Part shown: piece after piece, positions 2,912 through 24,206 of the stretch | Numbering within the stretch: the stretch's first letter is position 1 | Layout of the letters: every line of letters starts with the position of its first letter | IMG/VR virus record: IMGVR_UViG_2734482783_000014 | From: a virus | Lineage: Duplodnaviria; Heunggongvirae; Uroviricota; Caudoviricetes | Length of the DNA stretch: 25,447 nt | Reading direction: 5' to 3' (one strand) | The notes under the pieces: model-generated | What the model saw: the letters and a program-made list of their open reading frames with translations, nothing else | Told to the model about the DNA's origin: nothing | Database searches by the model: none | Position numbers and translations under genes: made by a program

Positions 2912-3486
2912 ACCGGGCCTCCGGTGGTATCGCCGCCTTTCAGGACGCCAGTATGCTGATGCGCATCAACCACGATCCCGTTAGAACTCATTGCACCGCC
3001 ACTCTGGGTAACACCACCATTGATCACCACTTCGCTGTTAATACGCGTGCGGTCAGCCTCCAGCACAAACTCACTGGTTTTCAGGGTGATGTTGTCGACG
3101 GCCTCAATGACCATAGATTTGATGCCCCTGACATACCAGCGCCCGGTGGCGGGTTCGTATTCAAACCAGCCACCGTCAGGATGTTCTGTCACGCAGGCGT
3201 CCGCCGACTTCGACGGTGGTGCGAACTGATTCGAATAGACAGCGGGCAGCGCAAAGGCAGTTTCAAGATTGCCTCCCAGACTCAGCAGCACCACCTGCTC
3301 ACCTTCCGATGGTCGCCACCATGTGCGGGCATTACCGGCACGCAGCGTCAGCCAACTGATCCAGTTAGTTTCAAGGTCGCCCGTTTTCACCCGGCAAAGC
3401 CAGTTTTCCCGGTCCACTTCGGTGACTACACCTGTGCGGATCAGGTTGGTGATAAGGCGCATGATTTCGGTTAGTTGTGCGTTCAT
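2908..3486 (-). CDS. V: Baseplate spike/assembly protein gpV-like
   Basis: 192-aa ORF in the expected position; Gly-rich C-terminus is typical of gpV-like spike proteins. ATG at 3486. Confidence 0.75.
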   Translation of the reverse strand: MNAQLTEIMRLITNLIRTGVVTEVDRENWLCRVKTGDLETNWISWLTLRAGNARTWWRPSEGEQVVLLSLGGNLETAFALPAVYSNQFAPPSKSADACVTEHPDGGWFEYEPATGRWYVRGIKSMVIEAVDNITLKTSEFVLEADRTRINSEVVINGGVTQSGGAMSSNGIVVDAHQHTGVLKGGDTTGGPV

Positions 3487-13847: not shown

Positions 13848-15098
13848 TTATCGCCATTTTAGATAAAAAGCAAAAAATGGATCAGTAATATGCAACTTTC
13901 GGTCCTCCTTATCCCAATCTATTACAGGAGTTGAAGCTTCTTCCGTAGCAGCTATTTTAGCCATTTTTTCTATAACACGAGTAACCTCATGAGCTTGTGG
14001 AGGAGTATCTTGCACCAGTTCGCGTATGGCTGATCTTAACTCCTCATACTGAATACTTTGCATTCCTGGTTTCATATGTGACAATGCATATAATACAACT
14101 TTATATATATCTACTTCCTCACCACTTTTCAGTTTTCTAGGAATTCTGTCAGTTCGCTGATTAGGGCCACTAGCTAACTTATCAAATACTATTTTCCCAG
14201 TGGATTCTGCAACCTTTCTAAAAATATCATCATCTAAAGAATTAATAACTAACTTACTCGACAAAGTTTCTTTAACATTATTTGCTAAGCATATAGCCTT
14301 GCAAAACTCTTGCATTAAATGAGGACTTCCCAATGATTCATTGGCAATTTTATCAATTACTGAATCACTAACTTCCATGTTTAACAGAGGAAATCCCACT
14401 TTTGCTATTTGTTTTAGTTCATCCATTTCCCACGAAGGCATGGAAATATTTTCTAGCCGTCCGGTAATTTCTTTTTCAACTTTTACAGCATCATACCTTC
14501 GATGTGGAATGGCTATCAGTACAACTGGTACTCCATCAAAAACTAATGGTTTTATCGCTCTAATAAAGTTACCTTGTAGGTCACGATCGAGGTAATGAAA
14601 GTCATCAATTATAAGACTAGACTTGGTTTGAGAGAGAACTTTTAGTGCAGAACTTTTTGCGGATATCGTTCGCGATTTTTTATTACCATTTGACTTTCCA
14701 TCCGTCTGAACTAAACCAGCCTCACCTGTACCTTTAACAACTAATGCACTTGCGGTCCCCGATACCTTACCACTAACTGCAATAGCACTATTTTCTCCAG
14801 AATTAACTTCAATACTATGGTAGCCATTTAGTTTTTCTAATACCTGCTCCCAAATATCATCTTCAGTTGTAATACTCCCACCGTCAATCCATACAACATC
14901 ATCGTCCATGACTGGGAATACCATTCTTGTAATTACAGTCTTACCAGACTTTGTTTGCCCAGTTAAAGTTACTAACTTACATAAATTATCTTTAGCACTC
15001 TCCAGTTTTCCATGAACCTCTCCTTCAGAGCGCTCAACATAAGTCAATTTCGGCATACCGCCTGGCACAAAAACTTGTGAAGCACGTTGTTTATCCAT
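13848..15098 (-). CDS. P-loop NTPase, 416 aa, AAA+/STAND-like (cargo gene)
   Basis: Walker A GQTKSGKT and Walker B-like SSLIIDDFHYL, followed by a largely helical C-terminal half. AT-rich with an AT-rich upstream region at 15100..15190. Sits between Q and the putative cos site. Confidence 0.7.
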   Translation of the reverse strand: MDKQRASQVFVPGGMPKLTYVERSEGEVHGKLESAKDNLCKLVTLTGQTKSGKTVITRMVFPVMDDDVVWIDGGSITTEDDIWEQVLEKLNGYHSIEVNSGENSAIAVSGKVSGTASALVVKGTGEAGLVQTDGKSNGNKKSRTISAKSSALKVLSQTKSSLIIDDFHYLDRDLQGNFIRAIKPLVFDGVPVVLIAIPHRRYDAVKVEKEITGRLENISMPSWEMDELKQIAKVGFPLLNMEVSDSVIDKIANESLGSPHLMQEFCKAICLANNVKETLSSKLVINSLDDDIFRKVAESTGKIVFDKLASGPNQRTDRIPRKLKSGEEVDIYKVVLYALSHMKPGMQSIQYEELRSAIRELVQDTPPQAHEVTRVIEKMAKIAATEEASTPVIDWDKEDRKLHITDPFFAFYLKWR

Positions 15099-15205
15099 GA
15101 ATACTTCCCAATTAACACCGTTCTAGTGAACTACGATTCTAAAATAACATCTGAGCTTGGACTATTAACATTACATGATTTGAGTATTCAAAGCCACAAG
15201 CGCGC

Positions 15206-15224
15206 GCTCGTATCCCCGCCACGC
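15206..15224 (-). other. Candidate cohesive-end (cos) site
   Basis: Minus strand reads GGCGTGGCGGGGATACGAG. The first 13 nt match the 186 cos sequence GGCGTGGCGGGGAAAGCAT as I recall it (P2: GGCGAGGCGGGGAAAGCAC). Orientation relative to Q matches the P2 arrangement. The region is GC-normal between two AT-rich cargo blocks. Confidence 0.4.
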
Positions 15225-15270
15225 CTGCCCGCTTTATGTAGTGGTTTTCATGCAGATGCATGCTCTACGC

Positions 15271-15297
15271 AAAAGCCCGCCAGTTCTGGCGGGCTTT
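15271..15297. terminator. Rho-independent terminator (aaaaGCCCGCCagttctGGCGGGCtttt), bidirectional
   Basis: GC-rich 7-8 bp stem flanked by an A-run and a T-run, immediately downstream of the minus-strand three-gene operon. Confidence 0.55.
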
Positions 15298-15361
15298 TGC
15301 AAAAACGATCCTCAAACGATCATGCGATTTCATGCAGCATAGTCATGCAAAGTAGAAACTG

Positions 15362-15778
15362 CTATTTAACGTCCGGCGTTTGCGCTGTGGGGGATACTTT
15401 TCCATCTAGCGTATTTACAATTGAGAGGGGGTAAATTCCCATTTCAATTCCACAAATCACGTCGTAACGAGCCTGCGCTTTCTCTCGCATTTCTTGAGAA
15501 ACAGGGGACGATGGTGCATTTAAAACTGCTTCGGCTTGCTTCTTCAGAGCTTTCAACCGTCTTTTCAGTTTGATTTCTTGCGGATCAACAGCATAAATCG
15601 TCCATGCAAAAGTAAAAACTTCGCTTAAAAGAATTGACACCATCGGTATTGAAGCAATGTAAAGGTCTTTCCATGTTGGATCTGTAATGAAGCTAGCCAG
15701 CTTTATTAGGAAAAGGCCTACGCCGCCGCCACCAGTAACACCGACTGCTTTACCGCTTGTTTTCTTTTGTTCAGGCAT
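15362..15778 (-). CDS. Small membrane protein with two predicted TM helices (third gene of cargo operon)
   Basis: From ATG at 15778: MPEQKKTSGKAVGVTGGGGVGLFLIKLASFI... plus a second hydrophobic helix IASIPMVSILLSEVFTFAWTIYAV, then a charged C-terminus. Start overlaps the end of the upstream gene by 8 bp. Confidence 0.55.
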   Translation of the reverse strand: MPEQKKTSGKAVGVTGGGGVGLFLIKLASFITDPTWKDLYIASIPMVSILLSEVFTFAWTIYAVDPQEIKLKRRLKALKKQAEAVLNAPSSPVSQEMREKAQARYDVICGIEMGIYPLSIVNTLDGKVSPTAQTPDVK

Positions 15779-16034
15779 GAGAGGCTGACTCCTTCCTCTC
15801 ACGCTTATTTTTCTCTGCTATATCATCGATGAGCTTTATTAACTCATCATCATTGTTTATATAAATATTTGTTTTATAGACATTTTTGTTTGCATCAGTA
15901 TAAGTGATAGAAACTTTTGTTTCGACAATAACTCGATCGAGCAGGCTACGTATAGCCACTCTAGCACCTATAAATATAGCTGGAGCTGCAACAAGCAGCC
16001 CCAACCATCCTAACACACTAATATCTATAGACAT
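15771..16034 (-). CDS. Small single-TM protein, 87 aa (second gene of cargo operon)
   Basis: N-terminal helix ISVLGWLGLLVAAPAIFIGARVAI followed by a polar Asn/Asp/Lys-rich domain. Begins 2 bp after the upstream gene's stop. Confidence 0.55.
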   Translation of the reverse strand: MSIDISVLGWLGLLVAAPAIFIGARVAIRSLLDRVIVETKVSITYTDANKNVYKTNIYINNDDELIKLIDDIAEKNKRERKESASHA

Positions 16035-16036
16035 TT

Positions 16037-16930
16037 TTAATCCGCATCAGGTTTTATTTTTCTATCTTTGGCGGCAAAGTGTCGACCCACTTTGATGATC
16101 GATAACTTTTCGTCTACCTGGCCACCGGAATCTTTCACAATTTTCTTCATCTTCACAGCAAACAATTCGCCAAAAATTTTGGGGGCGTCTGGTCCAGTAA
16201 CAAGCTTGATGAACTCATTATCTTCCATTCTGACATTGCGCTTTTCACCGCCAAACTCAACACGCCAGCCACTTTTTTTGTCAGTATGCGCCGAAACGAA
16301 TGTCACGGTTGTTTCAAATTCGTCAACTTCTTCTTTGGTTTCAAAGAGAACTTTTGGCGACTTAAACTCTTCTGCCTCATCTTTATGAATTTTGAGGATT
16401 TCTTTCTTAGAGGTGCGCGATTTTTTTACCACAAAATTGTCGATACCATCTTGTAACAGAGGCTGTCTGACAAACGCGTCAACAGCCTTACGAATCTCTG
16501 GGGCATTAACGATTTTTTCGACATCTTCAGAGCAAACAATCTCTTCACCATCGACTTTCAGCTTAACTTTGTCACTACCGTTAGCTTTCTCGACTATGTC
16601 GATCTTACGCCCGTTAAGCTTCTTGAGAACCTCTAAAACTGTAGCACCGCCAACGGCTAAAGGAATGGCTGACAAACCTAAAATTTGTACAACATCTTTA
16701 GCATTAGCTAGATGTTGTACAACCTCAATATCAAACCCAAAGGAACCGGCTATCAATTCAGCGTCAACGTTAACTTCAATGTCTCGCCCTCCGTTTACAA
16801 TCTCATTTGCAGAGTAGATAGCCTCACCTAGCCCCTGCAAACTTTTCGCAAACGAAAGAATATCCATCTTATGATCGTCGAGAGCTTTGCCTTGATACAC
16901 AATACTTACTGATTGAGTCTTATCCGCCAT
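16037..16930 (-). CDS. Hypothetical soluble protein, ~297 aa (first gene of cargo operon)
   Basis: Long AT-rich ORF, Lys/Glu/Asp-rich, with no recognisable catalytic motif. ATG at 16930; the tabulated ORF starts at TTG 16951. Confidence 0.6.
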   Translation of the reverse strand: MADKTQSVSIVYQGKALDDHKMDILSFAKSLQGLGEAIYSANEIVNGGRDIEVNVDAELIAGSFGFDIEVVQHLANAKDVVQILGLSAIPLAVGGATVLEVLKKLNGRKIDIVEKANGSDKVKLKVDGEEIVCSEDVEKIVNAPEIRKAVDAFVRQPLLQDGIDNFVVKKSRTSKKEILKIHKDEAEEFKSPKVLFETKEEVDEFETTVTFVSAHTDKKSGWRVEFGGEKRNVRMEDNEFIKLVTGPDAPKIFGELFAVKMKKIVKDSGGQVDEKLSIIKVGRHFAAKDRKIKPDAD

Positions 16931-17066
16931 TGAGTTCAGATCCGTTGCCAATAAAATGCGCGCGATTTTACGCCCATCACTATGTTTAATCTATCTATTA
17001 ATCATTTATCCCTCTAGCTGTCTACTATCGGACTCAAAAAACATGACTCATTACAAACGAAACCTA

Positions 17067-17300
17067 TCAATGCAGCCAGCTGTCGTCTTCCCACACCTTC
17101 TGCATAATTTTCAGCACTTGTTTTCTTTCTTCGTCCAGTTGCAGTCCGGTCAGTTCCACACCGTTAGAGCTACCTTTGCGGATACGAATTACCGTTTTGG
17201 GATACAGGAGGCGCAGATTGCGGTAAAGCTCGGATTCAAGGGCATCCAGGGTAGACTGGCTAATCTTCTGCTCTTTATCGATCATTATTTCAATGCGCAT
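17067..17300 (-). CDS. dinI: DinI-family protein (DNA-damage-inducible protein I-like)
   Basis: From ATG at 17300: MRIEIMIDKEQKISQSTLDALESELYRNLRLLYPKTVIRIRKG...ELTGL...QKVWEDDSW, the DinI pattern (MRIE... start, acidic C-terminus). GAGGTG RBS. Confidence 0.75.
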   Translation of the reverse strand: MRIEIMIDKEQKISQSTLDALESELYRNLRLLYPKTVIRIRKGSSNGVELTGLQLDEERKQVLKIMQKVWEDDSWLH

Positions 17301-17310
17301 AAAAGTCACC

Positions 17311-17499
17311 TCAGCTGATGACATCCATTGAGCGGTTGTATTCGTGGGTTCTGATTTTTGCCATGAGTTCATCTGTCAGTTCAGAAACCCACTGCAGAGC
17401 CAGCCCCTTCTCTTCATCACTACACTCACTAGCCGCTACAAGCTTAAGAAAAAAATCAATGCGCTGTAGCTTCAAAGACTCCAAAAAATAGTCCTGCAT
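17311..17499 (-). CDS. Small SOS-regulated ORF (62 aa), in the position of the 186 tum antirepressor but much shorter
   Basis: Perfect AGGAGG RBS 4 nt before ATG at 17499. A LexA box overlaps the predicted -10 upstream. Function is inferred from position only. Confidence 0.45.
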   Translation of the reverse strand: MQDYFLESLKLQRIDFFLKLVAASECSDEEKGLALQWVSELTDELMAKIRTHEYNRSMDVIS

Positions 17500-17539
17500 C
17501 TTTCCTCCTATGACACCAAAGCAATACTGTATGCATAAC

Positions 17540-17559
17540 CACTGTTTATATTTACAGTA
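17540..17559. promoter_or_regulatory. LexA operator (SOS box) overlapping a promoter for the small-ORF/dinI operon
   Basis: caCTGTttatatttACAGta has perfect CTGT-N8-ACAG spacing with an AT-rich core. On the minus strand a TATACT -10-like hexamer overlaps it and TTTACA lies about 15 bp upstream. Confidence 0.65.
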
Positions 17560-17651
17560 TATAATAATCTTACTGATGTAAAACGTTTTTTTACGTTCAT
17601 CAGCCTGATATGCCTGGTATTATTAAGAGCACGAATTGTTAACCCGCGTAA

Positions 17652-20066
17652 TTAATACAGGTTCCGCCACTTATCATCTTCCTGCAAACGCTGGTTCCGA
17701 TAGAAGATACGCAGGCCTGCTCCTGACGGAATACTGCCGCCGCGAAGGAGTAAATCGACCTCTTTCTCGCTACCATCAAATCCTCTGGACTTCAGCTCAT
17801 AGACGAGCTGCAGTCGCTGATGGTCTGTAATTCGCTGTTTGTAGTCTTTACGCCGTTTCGGTTTAACCAGGCGTAACCTTGCAGCCAGTTCCCGGCGCTC
17901 TTTTTTGCTCATACTGTGCAGGTAATCGTGCAACTCCTTGTCATCCATGCGGGTAATGTCCGTTCTGGTGTCCCCATCAGCTGATTTGTCTTTCCCTTGT
18001 TGGTTCAAATTTTCAGCAAGGGGACAGTTATTGCCACGAGTCCAAGGGGCGCAAGCGCCCTGGTCGGCTGCCGCCTCCTGAACGTCAACGGCCTTACGAA
18101 CCATTTTCCACTTCACTGCATGAGTGCAGATCTTGCCCTCTGCAATGGGTGACCAGATGCCATAAATACGAATACCGTGATCGCCATAGGCGGTTGGCTC
18201 TTCGTTGATTTCATAAGCGGTTCTGATGAGGTGATATTTGCGGGGAACCAGTACGCCGCCCTGCTTCATGATGTAGGTGGCAAAACAACCAGCATCAGCA
18301 GCAGCCAGGATGGCATCAAGGCGCGGGTTATCCAGTACCGGCGCACCTGCTTTTTTGTCACCCTGTTGCCTTGCCGCCTGACCAGCCAGCAATCGCAGTT
18401 CACGGTAAGCCTGACGCCCCGGAATGCCAAAGAAGCGGAATTGCTGAACACGATGCAGAGACGCCCAGGCATTAACGTATTCAGCGTTATCACGCAGGGA
18501 TTTACCCGTTTCCTTACTGATCTCGCCAGCCAGACCACGCCCGTCAATATTCTTACTGATATATTTCGCAATGTAGCTTGTCGGCGTTCCTTTGCGCGGG
18601 TTTATCAGCTCAGACTTAAAGCGCGGCCCCGTGTTATTGCCCAGCTCCTCGCGGTCTTCACGGATGGCAAACTTACGCAACAATGCAGTAATGGCGCGGC
18701 GGTCTTTTTTGCGCATGAAACACAACAGGTGCCAGTGAACTGTGCCGTCATGATGCGGCTCAGCCACCCGCACGCCATACCAGCGCAACCCGGCTTTGTG
18801 CATAGCCTTACGAAATGCAGCAAACATACCGACCAGATAATCACTGCTTTGTCTTACCGTCGCATTTGTCCAGGTCGGGTTGGGCCTGCCGTTATTTAGC
18901 GTGGAATGGAAACGTGACGGGCAGGTGATGGTGTAGAAAACGGCGCAGTCACCACGCATTTCCGCGATAAGCTCCAGACCTTTAACACAGGCCATCATCT
19001 CATTGCGGCGATGCGCAGGGTTGCTGCTGCTGGCGTTTACCACGTCTTCCATATCCAGCGTGTCGCCGTCTTCGTTCACCAGTTCATGAGAACGGAAAAA
19101 CTCCAGCGACTTACGGCGCTGCTCACGTTTATGCATCACGGCTTCATAGCTGACATAGGGAGATGCTTTTTTGCTGACCAGGCAAACAGCACGCAACTGC
19201 TCTTCCCGCCATTCGCAACGCATCTTCCATAATTTCCGATACCACCAGTCGGCGCATAACATACGCGCCAGCGAACCCGGAATGAGTTCATAAGGCACGG
19301 GTTTACGGCGGTTTCTTTTCCGACAGAGTTGCTCAAACGCAGGCGGGATAACATCCAGACGCAGGGTTTCCGCTGCCACCTTTTCCCATGTCTTGCGGAT
19401 TTCTTCTGGCGTAACATCATCGGTGGCATACAAATCGCCACAAGCTGTATCAAGGCACATGCTCATATGCGCAGCTACCAAGGTGGACAGGCGTTTCACC
19501 TGATCCTGACTCATTTCAGGCAGGATCAGCAGGCCGTCCAGCCCTTCATGGCTTGCCATAAAGCGAAAAGAAGTGGATAGCTGACTGTCGCGTACATGCT
19601 CCAGTCGTTCCAAGCATGGCTTAATCGTCTCACGCAAATAGCGGGAATAAGCCTTTGGCCTGCCCAGGCTGCTGAAGTATTTAATACGTTGCATCAGCGG
19701 CTTGCTGATATGGGAAGGCTGGGCGTTGACGTCCGCCAGAATGGCCATGTCTGGATTAAAACGCTGCTGCTCATGCGCCAGCTTTGCCCGGCTAATTAGC
19801 TTATCCTGCTCCATTTCGCGTTGGACAGGATCACGGGATTCATTAAAGAAATAACGCTCCCAGACCTGATCACTCAGTGCCTCGCGGCGCAGTTGTTCCT
19901 GCTCGTTATCGGCAGCGTACAGAGTGATCAGGTTTGAAAGCGCAGAAACCGGCGCAACTTCCGCCGGGTCCAGATAAGGGTTAATGGCCTTTTTCGGGCT
20001 GTTCCATGAGAATGCTGCGGCGACCTCGTTAAAGCCGCTGCAGTTGTTCATATCAGCATGGCTCAT
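17652..20066 (-). CDS. A: Replication initiation protein gpA-like (rolling-circle nickase)
   Basis: Contains [15 protein letters not shown] and [13 protein letters not shown], the metal-binding and active-site tyrosine motifs of P2 A-family initiators. ATG at 20066 overlaps the Dam stop (ATGA); the longer ORF extends to 20093. Confidence 0.9.
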
Positions 20067-20920
20067 GCACGCACTCCGTACACGACGGAACAATCCACGC
20101 CACGCGAAGGATCAAATCCTACCCAGCAGCGCGGCCCGGAAACAGCGATGATTTCTGTTGCAGATTTACTCTCACCAGCTGCCACGCCGATGCTGCGTTT
20201 TGCCTTGATGTAGTGGTGAGTAAAATTGCGATACAGCGAACGGATCAGGGATGTGTCACTGTTAGAAACAATGACCGGATGACCTTCAGATGATCGATGT
20301 TCAAGAACGGATGCCAGGTGATACTGGTCATCTTCAGTGAAGCCATCAGTGTGATAGCCGGAAAACGTACCGTCATAAGGCGGATCGCAATACACCACAT
20401 CCCCCGCCTTCAACATCGCCAGCGTTTCATCAAAGCTGGCGCAGATAAACGTTGCCCGCTGGGCTTTCTCTGCAAATGCGCGAATTTCTTTTTCAGGGAA
20501 ATACGGATTTTTATAATTACCGTAGGGAATGTTGAAATACCCGCTCTTGTTATAGCGACATAGCCCACGGTAACCATGACGATTGAGATACAGAAAATAT
20601 ACCGCTTTCATGAAATCAGTAATTTCAGTGGAGTAATTAAACTCCTGCCTTATGTTGTAATAAGCCACCTCTCTGTTTGCTTCCTCAAATAAAGCTCTGG
20701 CACGAGATATAAACGCCTCACAATCAGCAGCAACCTTTTTATAGAGGTTGATTAAATCAGGATTAATATCCGAAACCAGATAGCTGGGGTAATCCGTCTC
20801 CATCATCACAGCACAAGAACCCGCGAAAGGTTCAACCAGTCGCGTGCCAGCAGGAAGGTATTTTTTCAGTTCGGACATAATGGTGGTTTTATTACCCGCC
20901 CATTTCAGGATGGTGCTCAT
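20063..20920 (-). CDS. dam: DNA adenine (N6) methyltransferase, Dam family
   Basis: From ATG at 20920: [11 protein letters not shown]..., FAGSCAV, and the catalytic DPPY motif ([10 protein letters not shown]). AGGAGG RBS; start overlaps the upstream stop. Confidence 0.85.
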
Positions 20921-21219
20921 ACAGCACCTCCTGCAATAACATATCCTAAAGCTTCTAATGGGGTTAATGAGCGAATTGATAGCATCACCCATTGTTCTGA
21001 AACTGCCATGACGTCATTAACCGGAAGCACATGAGAGATAACCGCGGCCCATTCCCTACCCGTAAATACGCCATGCTTCCATTCGCAAAGAGAAAGAACA
21101 TCACCAACTTTATAGCCACGATCGTCTTTACGAAGTTCAGCCGTCTTTTGACCTGCAACCACAGCGTTGAAATACTTAGGTGCAATTTTTAATTGATGGA
21201 TACGCACAGCCCCTGTCAT
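20917..21219 (-). CDS. DUF3850/ASCH-like small protein
   Basis: From ATG at 21219: [40 protein letters not shown], which resembles the DUF3850 N-terminal pattern as I recall it. GGAGG RBS; ATGA overlap with the upstream gene. Confidence 0.6.
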
Positions 21220-22506: not shown

Positions 22507-23025
22507 TCACAGCAAACCGAATGAAGCACCGAGGCCAGTCACGGTATCAACTGCACTCGCCATCGCAGGATTAGCCTGTAAACGGGCCTGCAATGAAACA
22601 GCCGCCAGCGCCATCAGTCGTGTTACAGAGTTAATGCTGCTGATAGCATCACGACGACCTGCACTGGTTTTTACATCGCCAGATACCGCACCTGCAGCAA
22701 CACGCCCGATCTCTGCGGTTGCACTCATGACGTAATGTGGCAGTTTCTCTTTTGCTACCTCATTAATCGGTACACATGGCAGACAATGAATCTGTGCCAG
22801 AAAACCATCTACCAACGTTGAATCTTCAGTCAGATCGGTAAGCAGCCAGATTTCTGGTGCGGTTAATAAATGAGGTTGAGCTGGGTTCAGCTTGTTCCGC
22901 AGAATCTGCACATTCATGCCCGCACGTTCTGCCAGTTGCACCAGATTGTGGCGCAGTGCGAATGCACGACAGGCTTCATCAAAATGTGGATGTTTGGAAA
23001 CTTGGTAATCAAACATGGTTTTCAA
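22507..23025 (-). CDS. cII: 186 CII-like lysogeny-establishment transcription activator
   Basis: 172 aa beginning [50 protein letters not shown]..., which resembles 186 CII as recalled. It is the second gene of the rightward early operon after the Apl-like gene. Confidence 0.6.
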
Positions 23026-23080: not shown

Positions 23081-23284
23081 TTAAGCAGACAAAGCATCAA
23101 CAGTCAGAGCAGCCAGGTTAATCATTACCTTTTCACGTTTTTTGTCTTTACGAAGACGATGACGAGGTAGTCGGCCATCAGCCAACATGTCGTTAATCGT
23201 ATCAATAGAAAGGCCAGTCAGTTCGCTATAACGTTCGATTGTGACATGTGGTGTATTCAGAGTAATTGAAATGTTAGGTGTCAT
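23081..23284 (-). CDS. Apl/Cox-like excisionase-regulator (AlpA-type HTH)
   Basis: 67 aa with an HTH-like segment [25 protein letters not shown] and a basic tail. First gene of the early operon, divergent from the repressor. Confidence 0.6.
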
Positions 23285-23429: not shown

Positions 23430-23999
23430 GTGGATTTCAATAGCGGCGGTAAGAAAGCCATAGAACGTTTAGTTGAAGCATATGGGTTCGGTACTCGTCA
23501 GGCTCTCTGTGATCATTTAGGTGTTTCTAAGAGCACCATGGCAACGCGCTATATGCGTGATATTTTTCCAGCAGATTGGGTAATCCAGTGCGCCCTTGAA
23601 ACGGGCACCTCGCTTAATTGGCTAACAACAGGGCATGGTTCAAAGCAAGCATCAGCAAATACAAATACTATAGAAGTAGAAAAATATTTATTGTCTGATG
23701 GAGCATTGCAGAAAGACGGTTTTTATATTTTTGATAAGGGATTTCTACCCTCTACGTTTAAAAAACCTTTTGTCATCACAGATAACAATTCTGAATTTAT
23801 TTGTGATAAAGAATTTGATGATATACGTGATGGTAAATGGGTAATAAGTATTGATGGCGAAATAACGATCCGTGACATTACTCGTTTACCCGGTGGAAGA
23901 ATCTTCGTCGAGGGTGGAAACAGAGCCTTCGAATGCAAGATAGAAGACATTGAAATAATTGGTAAAATTATAAGTTTAACAGTCAAGTATGTTAAATAG
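23430..23999 (+). CDS. cI: 186-type CI immunity repressor
   Basis: From GTG at 23430 (GGAGG just upstream): ...IERLVEAYGFGTRQALCDHLGVSKSTMATRYMRD...CALETGTSLNWLTTGHG aligns with the recalled 186 CI N-terminal domain (LDRICEAYGF...CALETGANLKWLLTGEG). 189 aa versus 192 in 186. The longer ORF from 23343 has no start support. Confidence 0.75.
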   Translation: MDFNSGGKKAIERLVEAYGFGTRQALCDHLGVSKSTMATRYMRDIFPADWVIQCALETGTSLNWLTTGHGSKQASANTNTIEVEKYLLSDGALQKDGFYIFDKGFLPSTFKKPFVITDNNSEFICDKEFDDIRDGKWVISIDGEITIRDITRLPGGRIFVEGGNRAFECKIEDIEIIGKIISLTVKYVK

Positions 24000-24014: not shown

Positions 24015-24206
24015 ATGCTTGGTAAGGTATTTTTTGTGGTTTTGTCATGTTCTTTGTTATTAAACCCACTAACTACCTATGCTAGAAATTATCCCTGCTC
24101 AGGGAAAAAGGGAGGTGTTTCTCACTGTACCTCAGATGGCAAATTCGTTTGCAATGATGGAACTATTAGTAAATCCAAAAAAATCTGTACTAAAAACTCA
24201 CGATAA
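24015..24206 (+). CDS. Small secreted Cys-containing protein (63 aa) between cI and int
   Basis: Strong GGGAGGA RBS. N-terminal signal-peptide-like segment [23 protein letters not shown], then a ~40-aa mature region with four Cys and many Lys. Confidence 0.5.

What the first reader, a model, noticed from the sequence alone, without database searches (positions are those of the whole stretch)
17311..17600. LexA-box promoter driving a 62-aa ORF and dinI: SOS-inducible module with a truncated or novel antirepressor candidate
A perfect CTGT-N8-ACAG operator at 17542..17557 overlaps a -10-like hexamer for a minus-strand transcript carrying a strongly initiated 62-aa ORF and a DinI homologue. In 186 the equivalent LexA-controlled operon encodes the Tum antirepressor that links the SOS response to induction. 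Here the first ORF is far shorter than Tum, so it is either a distinct small antirepressor or a remnant.
Basis: partly seen in the sequence, partly recalled or inferred. Interest (0 to 1): 0.5.

Follow-up and report, generated by a model that had tools for sequence, protein, structure and literature searches.

The report
LexA-controlled split Tum antirepressor module
This is the usual SOS induction switch of 186/Fels-2-type prophages: a LexA-repressed promoter drives a small antirepressor gene (tumA type) and a separate dinI-like gene, which together match the two halves of phage 186 Tum, so it is real but already known.

Summary
A LexA box (core 17542..17557; 20-mer 17540..17559, 17/20 to consensus, 0 of 100 shuffles) lies over the -10 region of a minus-strand promoter. 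It is followed by a strong Shine-Dalgarno site, a 62-aa ORF (17311..17499) and a DinI gene (17067..17300).

The 62-aa ORF is neither a remnant nor a new antirepressor. Profile comparisons link it to residues 5-45 of 186 Tum (hhalign 97%, E 4e-11; reciprocal PHROG hits). The DinI gene matches the C-terminal half of Tum (41% identity). This is the split tum (tumA/tumB) described for PSP3 and Fels-2. The module is 97% identical to Fels-2 DNA, and the protein is 100% identical in many Klebsiella and E. coli phages. It occurs in 1286 of 5426 complete E. coli genomes. dN/dS is about 0.08. The window also carries the 186-type CI/Apl/CII switch that Tum acts on.

Two observations I could not find in the papers I could read:
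- The operator is a double, overlapping LexA site that aligns almost base for base with colicin/pesticin operators.
- TumA sequence does not co-vary with CI alleles across 32 loci, which suggests a broad-specificity antirepressor.

Verdict: already known, low interest.

The parts
17652..20093 (-). gpA-like rolling-circle replication gene, last gene of the early lytic operon. The SOS module lies directly downstream of it, as in 186, PSP3 and Fels-2.
   Evidence: Pfam Phage_GPA E 8.8e-128; same gene order in 186, PSP3 and Fels-2.
17573..17603 (-). Hairpin after gene A that overlaps the -35 element. It may be a weak terminator or insulator. It is shared with Fels-2 only.
   Evidence: RNA fold of 17560..17655, z = -2.2. 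Not conserved in SopEPhi, MLG42 or phi13.6.
17577..17582 (-). Inferred -35 hexamer TTTACA of the tum promoter.
   Evidence: Read from the sequence. TT[TC]AC[AT]-15 nt-TATACTG is conserved in 29 of 40 loci from different species. Equivalent to TTCACA of 186 p95.
17554..17561 (-). Inferred -10 region TATACTGT. The hexamer is either TACTGT with a 17-nt spacer, as annotated for 186 p95, or TATACT with a 15-nt spacer.
   Evidence: Not mapped experimentally here.
17540..17559 (-). LexA box A (promoter-side): TACTGTAAATATAAACAGTG, 17/20 to consensus. It covers the -10 hexamer and the likely transcription start.
   Evidence: CTGT-N8-[AC]CAG is present upstream of the homologue in 37 of 40 loci.
17525..17544 (-). 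LexA box B (gene-side): CAGTGGTTATGCATACAGTA, 14/20 to consensus. The left half is degenerate and the right half is intact. It overlaps box A by 5 bp. Together the two boxes form a colicin-type double operator.
   Evidence: It aligns with the single box of 186, PSP3, ESSI-2 and YenM. The 38-nt double operator matches the colicin N operator at 32/38 and the Klebsiella bacteriocin operator at 33/38. It is 81% invariant among 4 divergent relatives, against 13-33% in the flanks.
17504..17509 (-). Shine-Dalgarno site AGGAGG of tumA, 4 nt before the ATG.
   Evidence: The Shine-Dalgarno site plus ATG is 85% invariant in relatives.
17311..17499 (-). tumA-type gene, 62 aa. Homologue of the N-terminal (antirepressor) part of 186 Tum. 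Predicted two-helix hairpin.
   Evidence: PHROG cross-hits; hhalign 94.6-97.2%; dN/dS 0.07-0.12; AlphaFold2 pLDDT 90.5; 98% identical to Fels-2 STM2728 and 89% to SopEPhi orf10.
17067..17300 (-). dinI-like gene (tumB type), 77 aa, with its own Shine-Dalgarno site GAGGTGA (17312..17306).
   Evidence: Pfam DinI E 2.9e-21; 41% identical to 186 Tum residues 71-145; dN/dS 0.07-0.13.
16948..16978 (-). G+C-rich hairpin followed by UUUUAUU, between dinI and the next gene. It may be a partial terminator, in the position of t95a in 186.
   Evidence: Local hairpin in the fold of 16940..17075. The whole segment folds no better than shuffles, so this is weak evidence. t95a annotation.
23433..23999 (+). 186-type CI immunity repressor (HTH N-terminal domain plus CI C-terminal domain), the presumed target of TumA. 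The start codon is uncertain.
   Evidence: Pfam Phage_CI_repr E 3.3e-31 and Phage_CI_C E 4.7e-29; Peptidase_S24 below its cut-off; 33% identical to 186 CI.

Best explanation
The region is the SOS induction module of a 186/Fels-2-type (Peduoviridae) prophage.

Proposed mechanism:
- In an undamaged cell, LexA occupies a double, overlapping operator (17525..17559). This operator covers the -10 region and transcription start of a minus-strand promoter just downstream of replication gene A.
- After DNA damage, RecA-stimulated LexA self-cleavage derepresses the promoter.
- A short transcript is then made that encodes TumA (62 aa) and a DinI-like protein (77 aa).
- TumA is the stand-alone equivalent of the N-terminal part of 186 Tum. 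It binds the prophage's non-cleavable 186-type CI repressor and stops it from binding its operators. This switches the prophage to lytic growth.
- The DinI-like protein modulates RecA filaments, and so the strength or duration of the SOS signal.

Shown here: the sequence elements, their homology, their conservation and their genomic context.

Inferred from homology and from published work on 186, PSP3, Fels-2 and SopEPhi: LexA binding, the TumA-CI interaction and the DinI role.
For: 1. LexA box. The 20-mer is unique in the window and matched none of 100 shuffles. Its position relative to the -35 and -10 elements is the same as in the annotated 186 p95 promoter.

2. Conservation of the regulatory elements. 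A LexA box lies upstream of the homologue in 37 of 40 loci from about 40 Enterobacterales species. The operator and the Shine-Dalgarno site are 81-85% invariant, while flanking intergenic DNA is 13-33% invariant.

3. Homology to Tum.
- The 62-aa protein hits phrog_698 (E 3.6e-38), phrog_8554 (2.4e-8) and phrog_1993 (2e-3).
- The N-terminal half of 186 Tum hits the same three families (2.4e-5, 1.4e-11, 1e-22).
- hhalign of the family against Tum-N/PSP3 TumA/Yersinia 'tum protein' gives 97.2%, E 3.6e-11. Against 186 Tum alone it gives 95.1%, E 3e-8, over Tum residues 5-45.
- The downstream gene is 41% identical to the C-terminal half of Tum.

4. The gene is real. dN/dS is 0.07-0.12 at dS 0.5-1.1. 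There are 482 clusters at 90% identity. The module is present in 1286 of 5426 complete E. coli genomes.

5. Context. The window has a 186-type CI, an Apl-like gene, CII and a Fil-like gene. A 186-type CI was found in 34 of 40 loci that carry the homologue, and where gene A is also present it lies beyond gene A on the opposite strand.

6. Literature.
- 186 p95 is LexA-regulated and Tum inactivates CI (PMC7708051; GenBank U32222).
- Fels-2 and PSP3 have tum split in two, and in PSP3 the upstream gene carries the antirepressor activity (PMC3121763). PSP3 tumA is annotated 'UV induction of prophage'.
- Deleting tum of SopEPhi blocked phage transfer (Diard 2017, as summarised in PMC8710666 and PMC9827884). 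SopEPhi orf10 is 89% identical to this ORF.
Against: - No pairwise BLASTP similarity to 186 Tum or PSP3 TumA. The link exists only at profile level, over about 40 residues.
- No Pfam, NCBIfam or PADLOC family covers the protein. Structure searches gave nothing specific.
- The evidence that the upstream half is the antirepressor in a split system is a personal communication about PSP3. PSP3 TumA belongs to a different, distant subfamily.
- I could not read Bunny 2002 or Diard 2017, so I could not confirm which ORF was mutated.
- TumA sequence does not co-vary with the CI N- or C-terminal domain across 32 loci (Mantel r = -0.05 and -0.14, p = 0.67 and 0.91). Identical TumA proteins sit beside CIs that are only 34-61% identical. 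This is not what a tightly matched repressor/antirepressor pair would show.
- The -10 assignment is ambiguous (3/6 match with a 17-nt spacer, or 5/6 with a 15-nt spacer), and the generic promoter scan did not call it.
Confidence: 0.85

Rival explanations
1. The 62-aa ORF is a decayed remnant of a once-fused tum gene, broken by a stop codon or frameshift, and has no function of its own. Only dinI is functional.
For: It is far shorter than 186 Tum. It is annotated only as 'hypothetical protein' in RefSeq and in phage records.
Against: - dN/dS is 0.07-0.12 at dS up to about 1.1.
- Start codon, Shine-Dalgarno site and length (62 aa) are conserved across genera.
- Relatives use different stop codons (TGA, TAA, TAG), and in each case a separate Shine-Dalgarno site for dinI follows.
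- About 18 of 40 loci have the gene with no dinI after it.
- All genuine representatives at 50% identity are stand-alone small proteins.
Confidence: 0.02
2. The 62-aa protein is a new small antirepressor unrelated to Tum, analogous to Gifsy GfoA/GftA, that happens to occupy the same position.
For: No BLASTP similarity to 186 Tum or PSP3 TumA. No Pfam family.
Against: - Reciprocal PHROG hits.
- hhalign 95-97%, with a shared motif (L/I)x(R)(I/V)xxxxx(L)xAxxxCxxx(D/E)(K/R)xxAL over Tum residues 5-45.
- Distant family members form a graded series towards the 186 type.
- Same position, same LexA promoter layout and same DinI partner as 186 and PSP3.
Confidence: 0.03
3. TumA does not act on CI. It acts instead on a host SOS component (RecA, LexA or the DinI partner), or on another phage protein, and induction of this prophage depends on something else.
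For: - TumA does not co-vary with CI alleles. Identical TumA is found beside CIs that are 34-61% identical.
- TumA is fused to, or adjacent to, a RecA-binding DinI domain in many phages.
- No direct biochemical data exist for this subfamily.
Against: - 186 Tum is annotated as inhibiting CI DNA binding and is described as sequestering CI (PMC7708051).
- A 186-type CI is found in 34 of 40 loci, although the replication gene family differs between them (33-37% against 75-99% identity to gpA).
- TumA occurs without DinI in about 18 of 40 loci.
- SopEPhi tum deletion is reported to block induction-dependent transfer.
Confidence: 0.08
4. The LexA-like site is a chance A+T-rich palindrome and the promoter is not SOS-regulated.
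For: The minimal pattern CTGT-N8-ACAG appears at least once in 25 of 100 shuffled windows.
Against: - 17/20 match to the 20-mer consensus, with none found in 100 shuffles.
- Fixed position relative to the promoter and gene in 37 of 40 loci.
- 81% invariant within variable intergenic DNA.
- Near-identity to colicin/pesticin operators, a class that binds two LexA dimers.
Confidence: 0.02

Closest known systems
Coliphage 186 p95-tum SOS operon (Tum antirepressor, 146 aa)
   Same: - Position directly after replication gene A.
- LexA box starting at the -10 hexamer TACTGT.
- The N-terminal part is homologous to the 62-aa protein (hhalign 95%, Tum residues 5-45). The C-terminal part is homologous to the DinI gene (41% identity).
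- 186-type CI/Apl/CII switch.

   Different: - In 186 the two parts form one polypeptide, although an internal Shine-Dalgarno site and GTG also give a separate DinI-like product, Tum95.5. Here they are two genes in different reading frames.
- 186 has one LexA box; here there are two overlapping boxes.
- Pairwise identity of the N-terminal parts is only about 20%.
PSP3 tumA / tumB
   Same: Split arrangement: a roughly 60-aa upstream gene ('similar to 5' end 186 tum; UV induction of prophage') followed by a DinI-like gene, after gene A and behind a LexA box.
   Different: - PSP3 TumA belongs to the 186-like subfamily (14% identity to the window protein in the alignment; no BLASTP hit).
- In PSP3 the two genes are in the same frame, separated by a stop codon plus one codon.
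- PSP3 has a single LexA box.
Fels-2 STM2728 / STM2726.1 and SopEPhi orf10 / orf11 (the 'tum' of Felsduovirus)
   Same: Essentially the same module. The DNA is 97% identical to Fels-2. TumA is 61/62 identical to Fels-2 STM2728 and 89% identical to SopEPhi orf10. The double operator and gene order are the same. The literature links the lethality of a lexA null mutation to Fels-2 and attributes SopEPhi induction to tum.
   Different: The window prophage has a different CI allele. The best match in the phage collection is 58%; the match to Escherichia sp. MOD1-EC7003 is 100%. It also has different cargo downstream of dinI.
Gifsy-1/2/3 LexA-controlled dinI-antirepressor (gfoA/gftA)-irsA operons
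   Same: A LexA-controlled operon that combines a dinI homologue with a small antirepressor acting on a non-cleavable repressor. The antirepressors can act across prophages (PMC3121763).
   Different: The gene order is reversed (dinI first). The phages are lambdoid, with a different repressor family. Sequence relationship to GfoA/GftA was not tested here.
Double overlapping SOS boxes of colicin, pesticin and klebicin promoters
   Same: The 38-nt operator ATACTGTAAATATAAACAGTGGTTATGCATACAGTATT matches the colicin N operator at 32/38 and a Klebsiella bacteriocin operator at 33/38, including the shared CAGTGG overlap. Such operators bind two LexA dimers and give very tight repression (PMC2994835).
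   Different: - It drives a phage antirepressor, not a bacteriocin.
- The spacing to the -35 element differs. Relatives have an 8-nt insertion relative to colicin promoters, and the functional -35 appears to be TTTACA.
- Binding of two LexA dimers was not tested here.
E. coli DinI
   Same: Pfam DinI domain over residues 15-77 of the 78-aa query used in that call (one extra N-terminal residue, so 14-76 of the 77-aa protein). Conserved acidic C-terminal helix ending WEDDSW.
   Different: Phage-borne paralogue. It scores below the NCBIfam equivalog cut-off for chromosomal DinI (42.5 bits against 111).

Membership tests
Tum / TumA antirepressor (N-terminal part of 186 Tum) | Sequence homology to the N-terminal part of 186 Tum or to PSP3 TumA | tested here: met
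   Reciprocal PHROG hits. hhalign 94.6%, 97.2% with E 3.6e-11, and 95.1% against 186 Tum residues 5-45. Pairwise BLASTP was negative, so the relationship is remote.
Tum / TumA antirepressor (N-terminal part of 186 Tum) | Gene lies directly behind a LexA-box promoter, downstream of replication gene A | tested here: met
   Same layout in 186, PSP3 and Fels-2. LexA box present in 37 of 40 loci.
Tum / TumA antirepressor (N-terminal part of 186 Tum) | Transcription actually repressed by LexA and induced by DNA damage | not testable with these tools
   Needs a reporter fusion in lexA mutants, or a LexA footprint.
Tum / TumA antirepressor (N-terminal part of 186 Tum) | Resident prophage has a 186-type, non-self-cleaving CI repressor | tested here: met
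   Pfam Phage_CI_repr plus Phage_CI_C; Peptidase_S24 at 16 bits, below its 23.3-bit cut-off. A 186-type CI is present in 34 of 40 loci. Absence of self-cleavage is inferred, not shown.
Tum / TumA antirepressor (N-terminal part of 186 Tum) | Protein binds CI and prevents operator binding | not testable with these tools
   Known for 186 Tum. No data for this subfamily.
Tum / TumA antirepressor (N-terminal part of 186 Tum) | Co-variation with the cognate repressor, as expected for a specific pair | tested here: not met
   Mantel r = -0.05 for the CI N-terminal domain (p 0.67) and -0.14 for the C-terminal domain (p 0.91), 32 loci. This is not a defining feature of the family, but it bears on specificity.
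DinI family (Pfam PF06183) | Match to the DinI profile above the gathering score | tested here: met
   E 2.9e-21, 76 bits against a 24.2-bit cut-off. 41% identical to the C-terminal half of 186 Tum.
Enterobacterial LexA (SOS) box | CTGT-N8-ACAG core within a 20-bp palindrome close to TACTGTATATATATACAGTA | tested here: met
   17/20, unique in the window, 0 of 100 shuffles.
Colicin-type double overlapping SOS operator | Two LexA boxes that share the CAGTG overlap, with a good promoter-side box and a weaker gene-side box | tested here: met
   Alignment with the colicin N, pesticin and Klebsiella bacteriocin operators. A second CAG half-site 15 bp downstream of the first is present in 23 of 40 loci, and the strict colicin-like form in 17 of 40. 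Occupancy by two LexA dimers is not testable here.
Large antirepressors (P22 Ant, N15 AntC, KilAC/ANT domains) | Match to the corresponding Pfam domains | tested here: not met
   No Pfam family at E <= 1 for the 62-aa protein.
Gifsy GfoA/GftA small antirepressors | Sequence similarity to GfoA/GftA | not tested
   Sequences were not retrieved. Only the operon logic was compared.

The most novel reading that the evidence does not exclude
The Fels-2-type TumA may be a broad-spectrum antirepressor. It would recognise an invariant surface of 186-type CI repressors, for example the conserved C(A/S)LETGxSLxWLxTGxG end of the HTH domain, rather than one immunity allele. One SOS-derepressed prophage could then co-induce heteroimmune P2-like prophages in the same cell. 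Its promoter-operator may share ancestry with colicin/pesticin promoters and set a colicin-like, high-threshold, all-or-none SOS response. Read-through past the weak hairpin after dinI might also place the downstream candidate defence genes under SOS control.
Probability: 0.3. Interest if true: 0.45.

Novelty: already known. Interest (0 to 1): 0.18.

Why it matters
The finding mainly corrects annotation. A gene present in about a quarter of complete E. coli genomes, and in many Klebsiella and Salmonella prophages, is labelled 'hypothetical protein' or, wrongly, 'levan regulatory protein'. It is very probably the antirepressor that couples these prophages to the SOS response. That coupling controls induction and the transfer of cargo such as sopE.

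Two points could be followed up by experiment. The first is the colicin-type double LexA operator, which may explain tight, threshold-like induction. The second is the lack of co-variation between TumA and CI alleles, which predicts cross-induction among co-resident P2-like prophages.

Tried and rejected
- Pairwise BLASTP of the 62-aa protein against 186 Tum and PSP3 TumA found nothing. Only profile methods show the link.
- Pfam, NCBIfam and PADLOC found no family for the 62-aa protein.
- AlphaFold2 gave a confident two-helix hairpin. Foldseek against PDB and BFVD gave only generic helical-hairpin hits, all with E > 0.4.
- Rfam found nothing in the window.
- The generic promoter/terminator scan missed the promoter. 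Its one terminator call was a small hairpin over the tumA stop codon and dinI Shine-Dalgarno site. That hairpin is shared with Fels-2 only, so I dropped the idea of conserved translational coupling.
- The hairpin after gene A is likewise not conserved beyond Fels-2.
- I rejected read-through fusion of TumA to DinI. The genes are in different frames, and a second in-frame stop follows six codons later.
- I first thought TumA might track the CI N-terminal domain, because six phages with identical or near-identical TumA (98-100%) have CI N-terminal domains 60-83% identical against 23-59% for the C-terminal domains. The 32-locus Mantel test showed no co-variation, so I withdrew that as evidence.
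- The apparent long or repeated family members (P0163, P0141, P0154) are a HEAT-repeat false positive and chimeric calls, not real fusions.
- A search for the P2 cos sequence found no match.
- Bunny 2002 and Diard 2017 could not be read. One literature search returned only noise.
- The first dinI dN/dS run used a start coordinate 3 nt off. It was redone correctly.
Full report
**1. The observation**

The window is a P2/186-like (Peduoviridae) prophage. On the minus strand, an 813-aa gpA replication gene (17652..20093; Pfam Phage_GPA E 8.8e-128) is followed by an intergenic region, a 62-aa ORF (17311..17499) and a DinI homologue.

CTGT-N8-ACAG occurs once in the window, at 17542..17557. Alone this is weak evidence: 0.26 are expected, and 25 of 100 shuffles contain at least one. 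The full 20-mer TACTGTAAATATAAACAGTG (17559..17540, minus strand) is 17/20 to the enterobacterial LexA consensus. No shuffle produced such a match.

The minus strand reads TTTACA (17582..17577), 17 nt, TACTGT (17559..17554), with AGGAGG four bases before the ATG at 17499. This is the layout annotated for 186 p95: TTCACA, 18 nt, TACTGT, with the LexA 20-mer starting at the -10. An alternative -10 is TATACT, with a 15-nt spacer. The generic promoter scanner did not call either.

The DinI gene is 17067..17300 (77 aa). It has its own Shine-Dalgarno site, lies 10 nt after the tumA stop codon and is in a different frame. A second in-frame stop follows six codons after the first, so read-through cannot fuse the two proteins.

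**2. What the 62-aa ORF is**

It has no Pfam, NCBIfam or PADLOC family and no BLASTP similarity to 186 Tum or PSP3 TumA. Profile methods do link them:
- The 62-aa protein hits phrog_698 (E 3.6e-38), phrog_8554 (2.4e-8) and phrog_1993 (2e-3). The N-terminal 60 residues of 186 Tum hit the same three families (2.4e-5, 1.4e-11, 1e-22).
- hhalign of six window-type sequences against 186 Tum-N, PSP3 TumA and a Yersinia 'tum protein' gave 94.6%.
- A broader 32-sequence profile gave 97.2%, E 3.6e-11. Against 186 Tum alone it gave 95.1%, E 3e-8, over Tum residues 5-45.
- Distant family members grade towards the 186-type sequence.

The downstream gene is 41% identical to Tum residues 71-145. So 186 Tum (146 aa) corresponds to the 62-aa protein plus the 77-aa DinI-like protein.

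This is documented. PSP3 is annotated with tumA ('similar to 5' end 186 tum; UV induction of prophage') and tumB (DinI-like). Lemire et al. 2011 state that Fels-2 and PSP3 have tum split in two, and that in PSP3 the upstream gene carries the antirepressor activity (PMC3121763, citing Bunny 2002 and a personal communication).

**3. It is a real, common gene**

- The module is 97-98% identical at DNA level to Fels-2 and to many Klebsiella, Salmonella and E. coli P2-like phages.
- The protein is at least 99% identical (tblastn) in 39 phage records and differs from Fels-2 STM2728 at one residue.
- Against relatives with 84-89% protein identity, dN/dS is 0.07-0.12 at dS 0.5-1.1. For dinI it is 0.07-0.13.
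- The family has 482 clusters at 90% identity. All are unnamed or mislabelled 'levan regulatory protein'.
- It has 86 representatives at 50% identity. Nearly all are stand-alone proteins of 50-100 aa, and the few long hits are artefacts.
- The module is present in 1286 of 5426 complete E. coli genomes, where PGAP calls the ORF hypothetical.
- AlphaFold2 predicts a confident two-helix hairpin (pLDDT 90.5). Fold searches found nothing informative.

The 'remnant' reading is therefore rejected.

**4. Regulation**

The single LexA box of 186, PSP3, ESSI-2 and the Yersinia phage aligns with a degenerate second box in the window, not with the perfect one. That second box is CAGTGGTTATGCATACAGTA (17544..17525, 14/20). 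It overlaps the perfect box by 5 bp.

The 38-nt double operator matches the operators immediately upstream of three bacteriocin genes: colicin N (32/38), pesticin (32/38) and a Klebsiella tRNase bacteriocin (33/38). [quoted passage not shown] Such genes show no detectable basal expression (PMC2994835). For colicin N the published heterology index is 7.55 for the distal box and 11.61 for the proximal box.

Among four divergent Fels-2-type relatives, the double operator is 81% invariant and the Shine-Dalgarno site plus ATG is 85% invariant. The flanking intergenic segments are 13-33% invariant.

In 40 loci from about 40 Enterobacterales species:
- 37 have CTGT-N8-[AC]CAG upstream of the homologue.
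- 23 have the second CAG half-site 15 bp downstream of the first.
- 17 have the strict colicin-like form.
- Pantoea and Erwinia loci have a single box.

LexA control is therefore strongly supported by comparative evidence, but it is not shown directly.

**5. Target and mechanism**

The window carries the 186-type switch:
- CI (about 23433..23999; Pfam Phage_CI_repr and Phage_CI_C; S24 peptidase below its cut-off; 33% identical to 186 CI)
- an Apl-like gene (23081..23284)
- CII (22507..23025)
- a Fil-like gene and an integrase

In 186, SOS derepression of p95 produces Tum, which sequesters CI and derepresses pR (PMC7708051; U32222 annotation). For SopEPhi, whose orf10 is 89% identical to this ORF, reviews report that Diard et al. 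2017 found that deleting tum blocked phage transfer. I could not read the primary paper.

A 186-type CI is found in 34 of 40 loci. This holds although the homologue occurs with two different gpA families, and lacks a downstream dinI in about 18 of 40 loci.

The best explanation is thus a LexA-repressed TumA antirepressor acting on CI, with DinI as an accessory modulator of RecA. The TumA-CI interaction is inferred.

**6. An unexpected detail**

The window's CI is at most 58% identical to any CI in the phage collection. It is 100% identical in Escherichia sp. MOD1-EC7003. Six phages with identical or 98%-identical TumA carry CIs that are 34-61% identical overall. Their N-terminal domains are 60-83% identical and their C-terminal domains 23-59%.

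Across 32 loci, TumA identity does not correlate with CI N-terminal or C-terminal identity (Mantel r = -0.05 and -0.14, p = 0.67 and 0.91). One Pantoea locus pairs an 84%-identical TumA with a 186-like CI.

Either TumA recognises an invariant CI surface and has broad specificity, like the cross-acting Gifsy antirepressors, or its specificity lies elsewhere. This is the only part of the finding that is not routine.

**7. Verdict**

The module is the known split tum (tumA plus a dinI-like tumB) of Fels-2/SopEPhi/PSP3-type phages. Novelty: already known. Interest: low (0.18). The colicin-type double operator and the lack of TumA-CI co-variation are modest leads for experiment.

Noticed in passing
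window 13848..17066 (minus strand): Similarity to Fels-2-type phages stops exactly at the dinI stop codon (the match begins at window 17066). The variable cargo between dinI and the portal gene holds four co-directional ORFs:
- a 304-aa protein (16037..16951; likely ATG at 16930) matching PADLOC candidate PDC-S42 (E 7.8e-44) and phrog_3243
- two small ORFs (15771..16034 and 15362..15802)
- a 416-aa AAA-type ATPase (13848..15098) matching PDC-S59 (E 4.6e-32), with a weak LmuA hit
These are probable anti-phage defence genes. They might be read through from the SOS promoter.
   Followed up: partly
window 23433..23999 (+); L019: The CI repressor is an allele not represented in the phage collection (best 58%, phage 813R9). 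It is 100% identical in Escherichia sp. MOD1-EC7003, which also has gpA at 99.6%. That prophage is probably the same one, or a close relative.
   Followed up: partly
L003, L005 (SopEPhi, MLG42) upstream of tumA; L010-L012: In SopEPhi, MLG42 and phi13.6 the sequence upstream of the operator reads ATTGACAGAAAAAA. This resembles the TTGACAGGAAAAACG -35 region of colicin N and pesticin promoters, with an 8-nt insertion. The whole promoter-operator cassette may therefore share ancestry with bacteriocin promoters.
   Followed up: partly
L014 (Klebsiella phage 4LV2017, CI region): The annotated CI ORF of 4LV2017 begins with an extra copy of the CI HTH domain (VIERILMAYGFKSRQAF...WLAFG) ahead of the normal CI. 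This could be a duplicated or fused N-terminal domain, or an over-extended ORF call.
   Followed up: no
protein family of window 17311..17499: Homologues are labelled 'levan regulatory protein' or 'levan regulatory domain protein' in UniRef and in some Klebsiella phage records. Nothing found here supports that name, so it looks like a propagated misannotation.
   Followed up: no
window 24015..24206 (+): A 63-aa ORF between CI and int has a signal-peptide-like N-terminus and several cysteines ([16 protein letters not shown]...). It may be a small secreted protein or lipoprotein moron.
   Followed up: no
window 20063..20992 (-): A DNA methyltransferase gene (phrog_56, E 2e-123) lies immediately upstream of gene A. 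Fels-2 has a Dam-like 'retron EC67 methylase' gene in the same position.
   Followed up: no
L002 (186) 3260..3305: Even the fused 186 tum keeps an internal AAGGAGG-N5-GTG start at codon 71. This start yields the separate DinI-like Tum95.5 product. The fused and split arrangements are therefore functionally closer than they look.
   Followed up: partly
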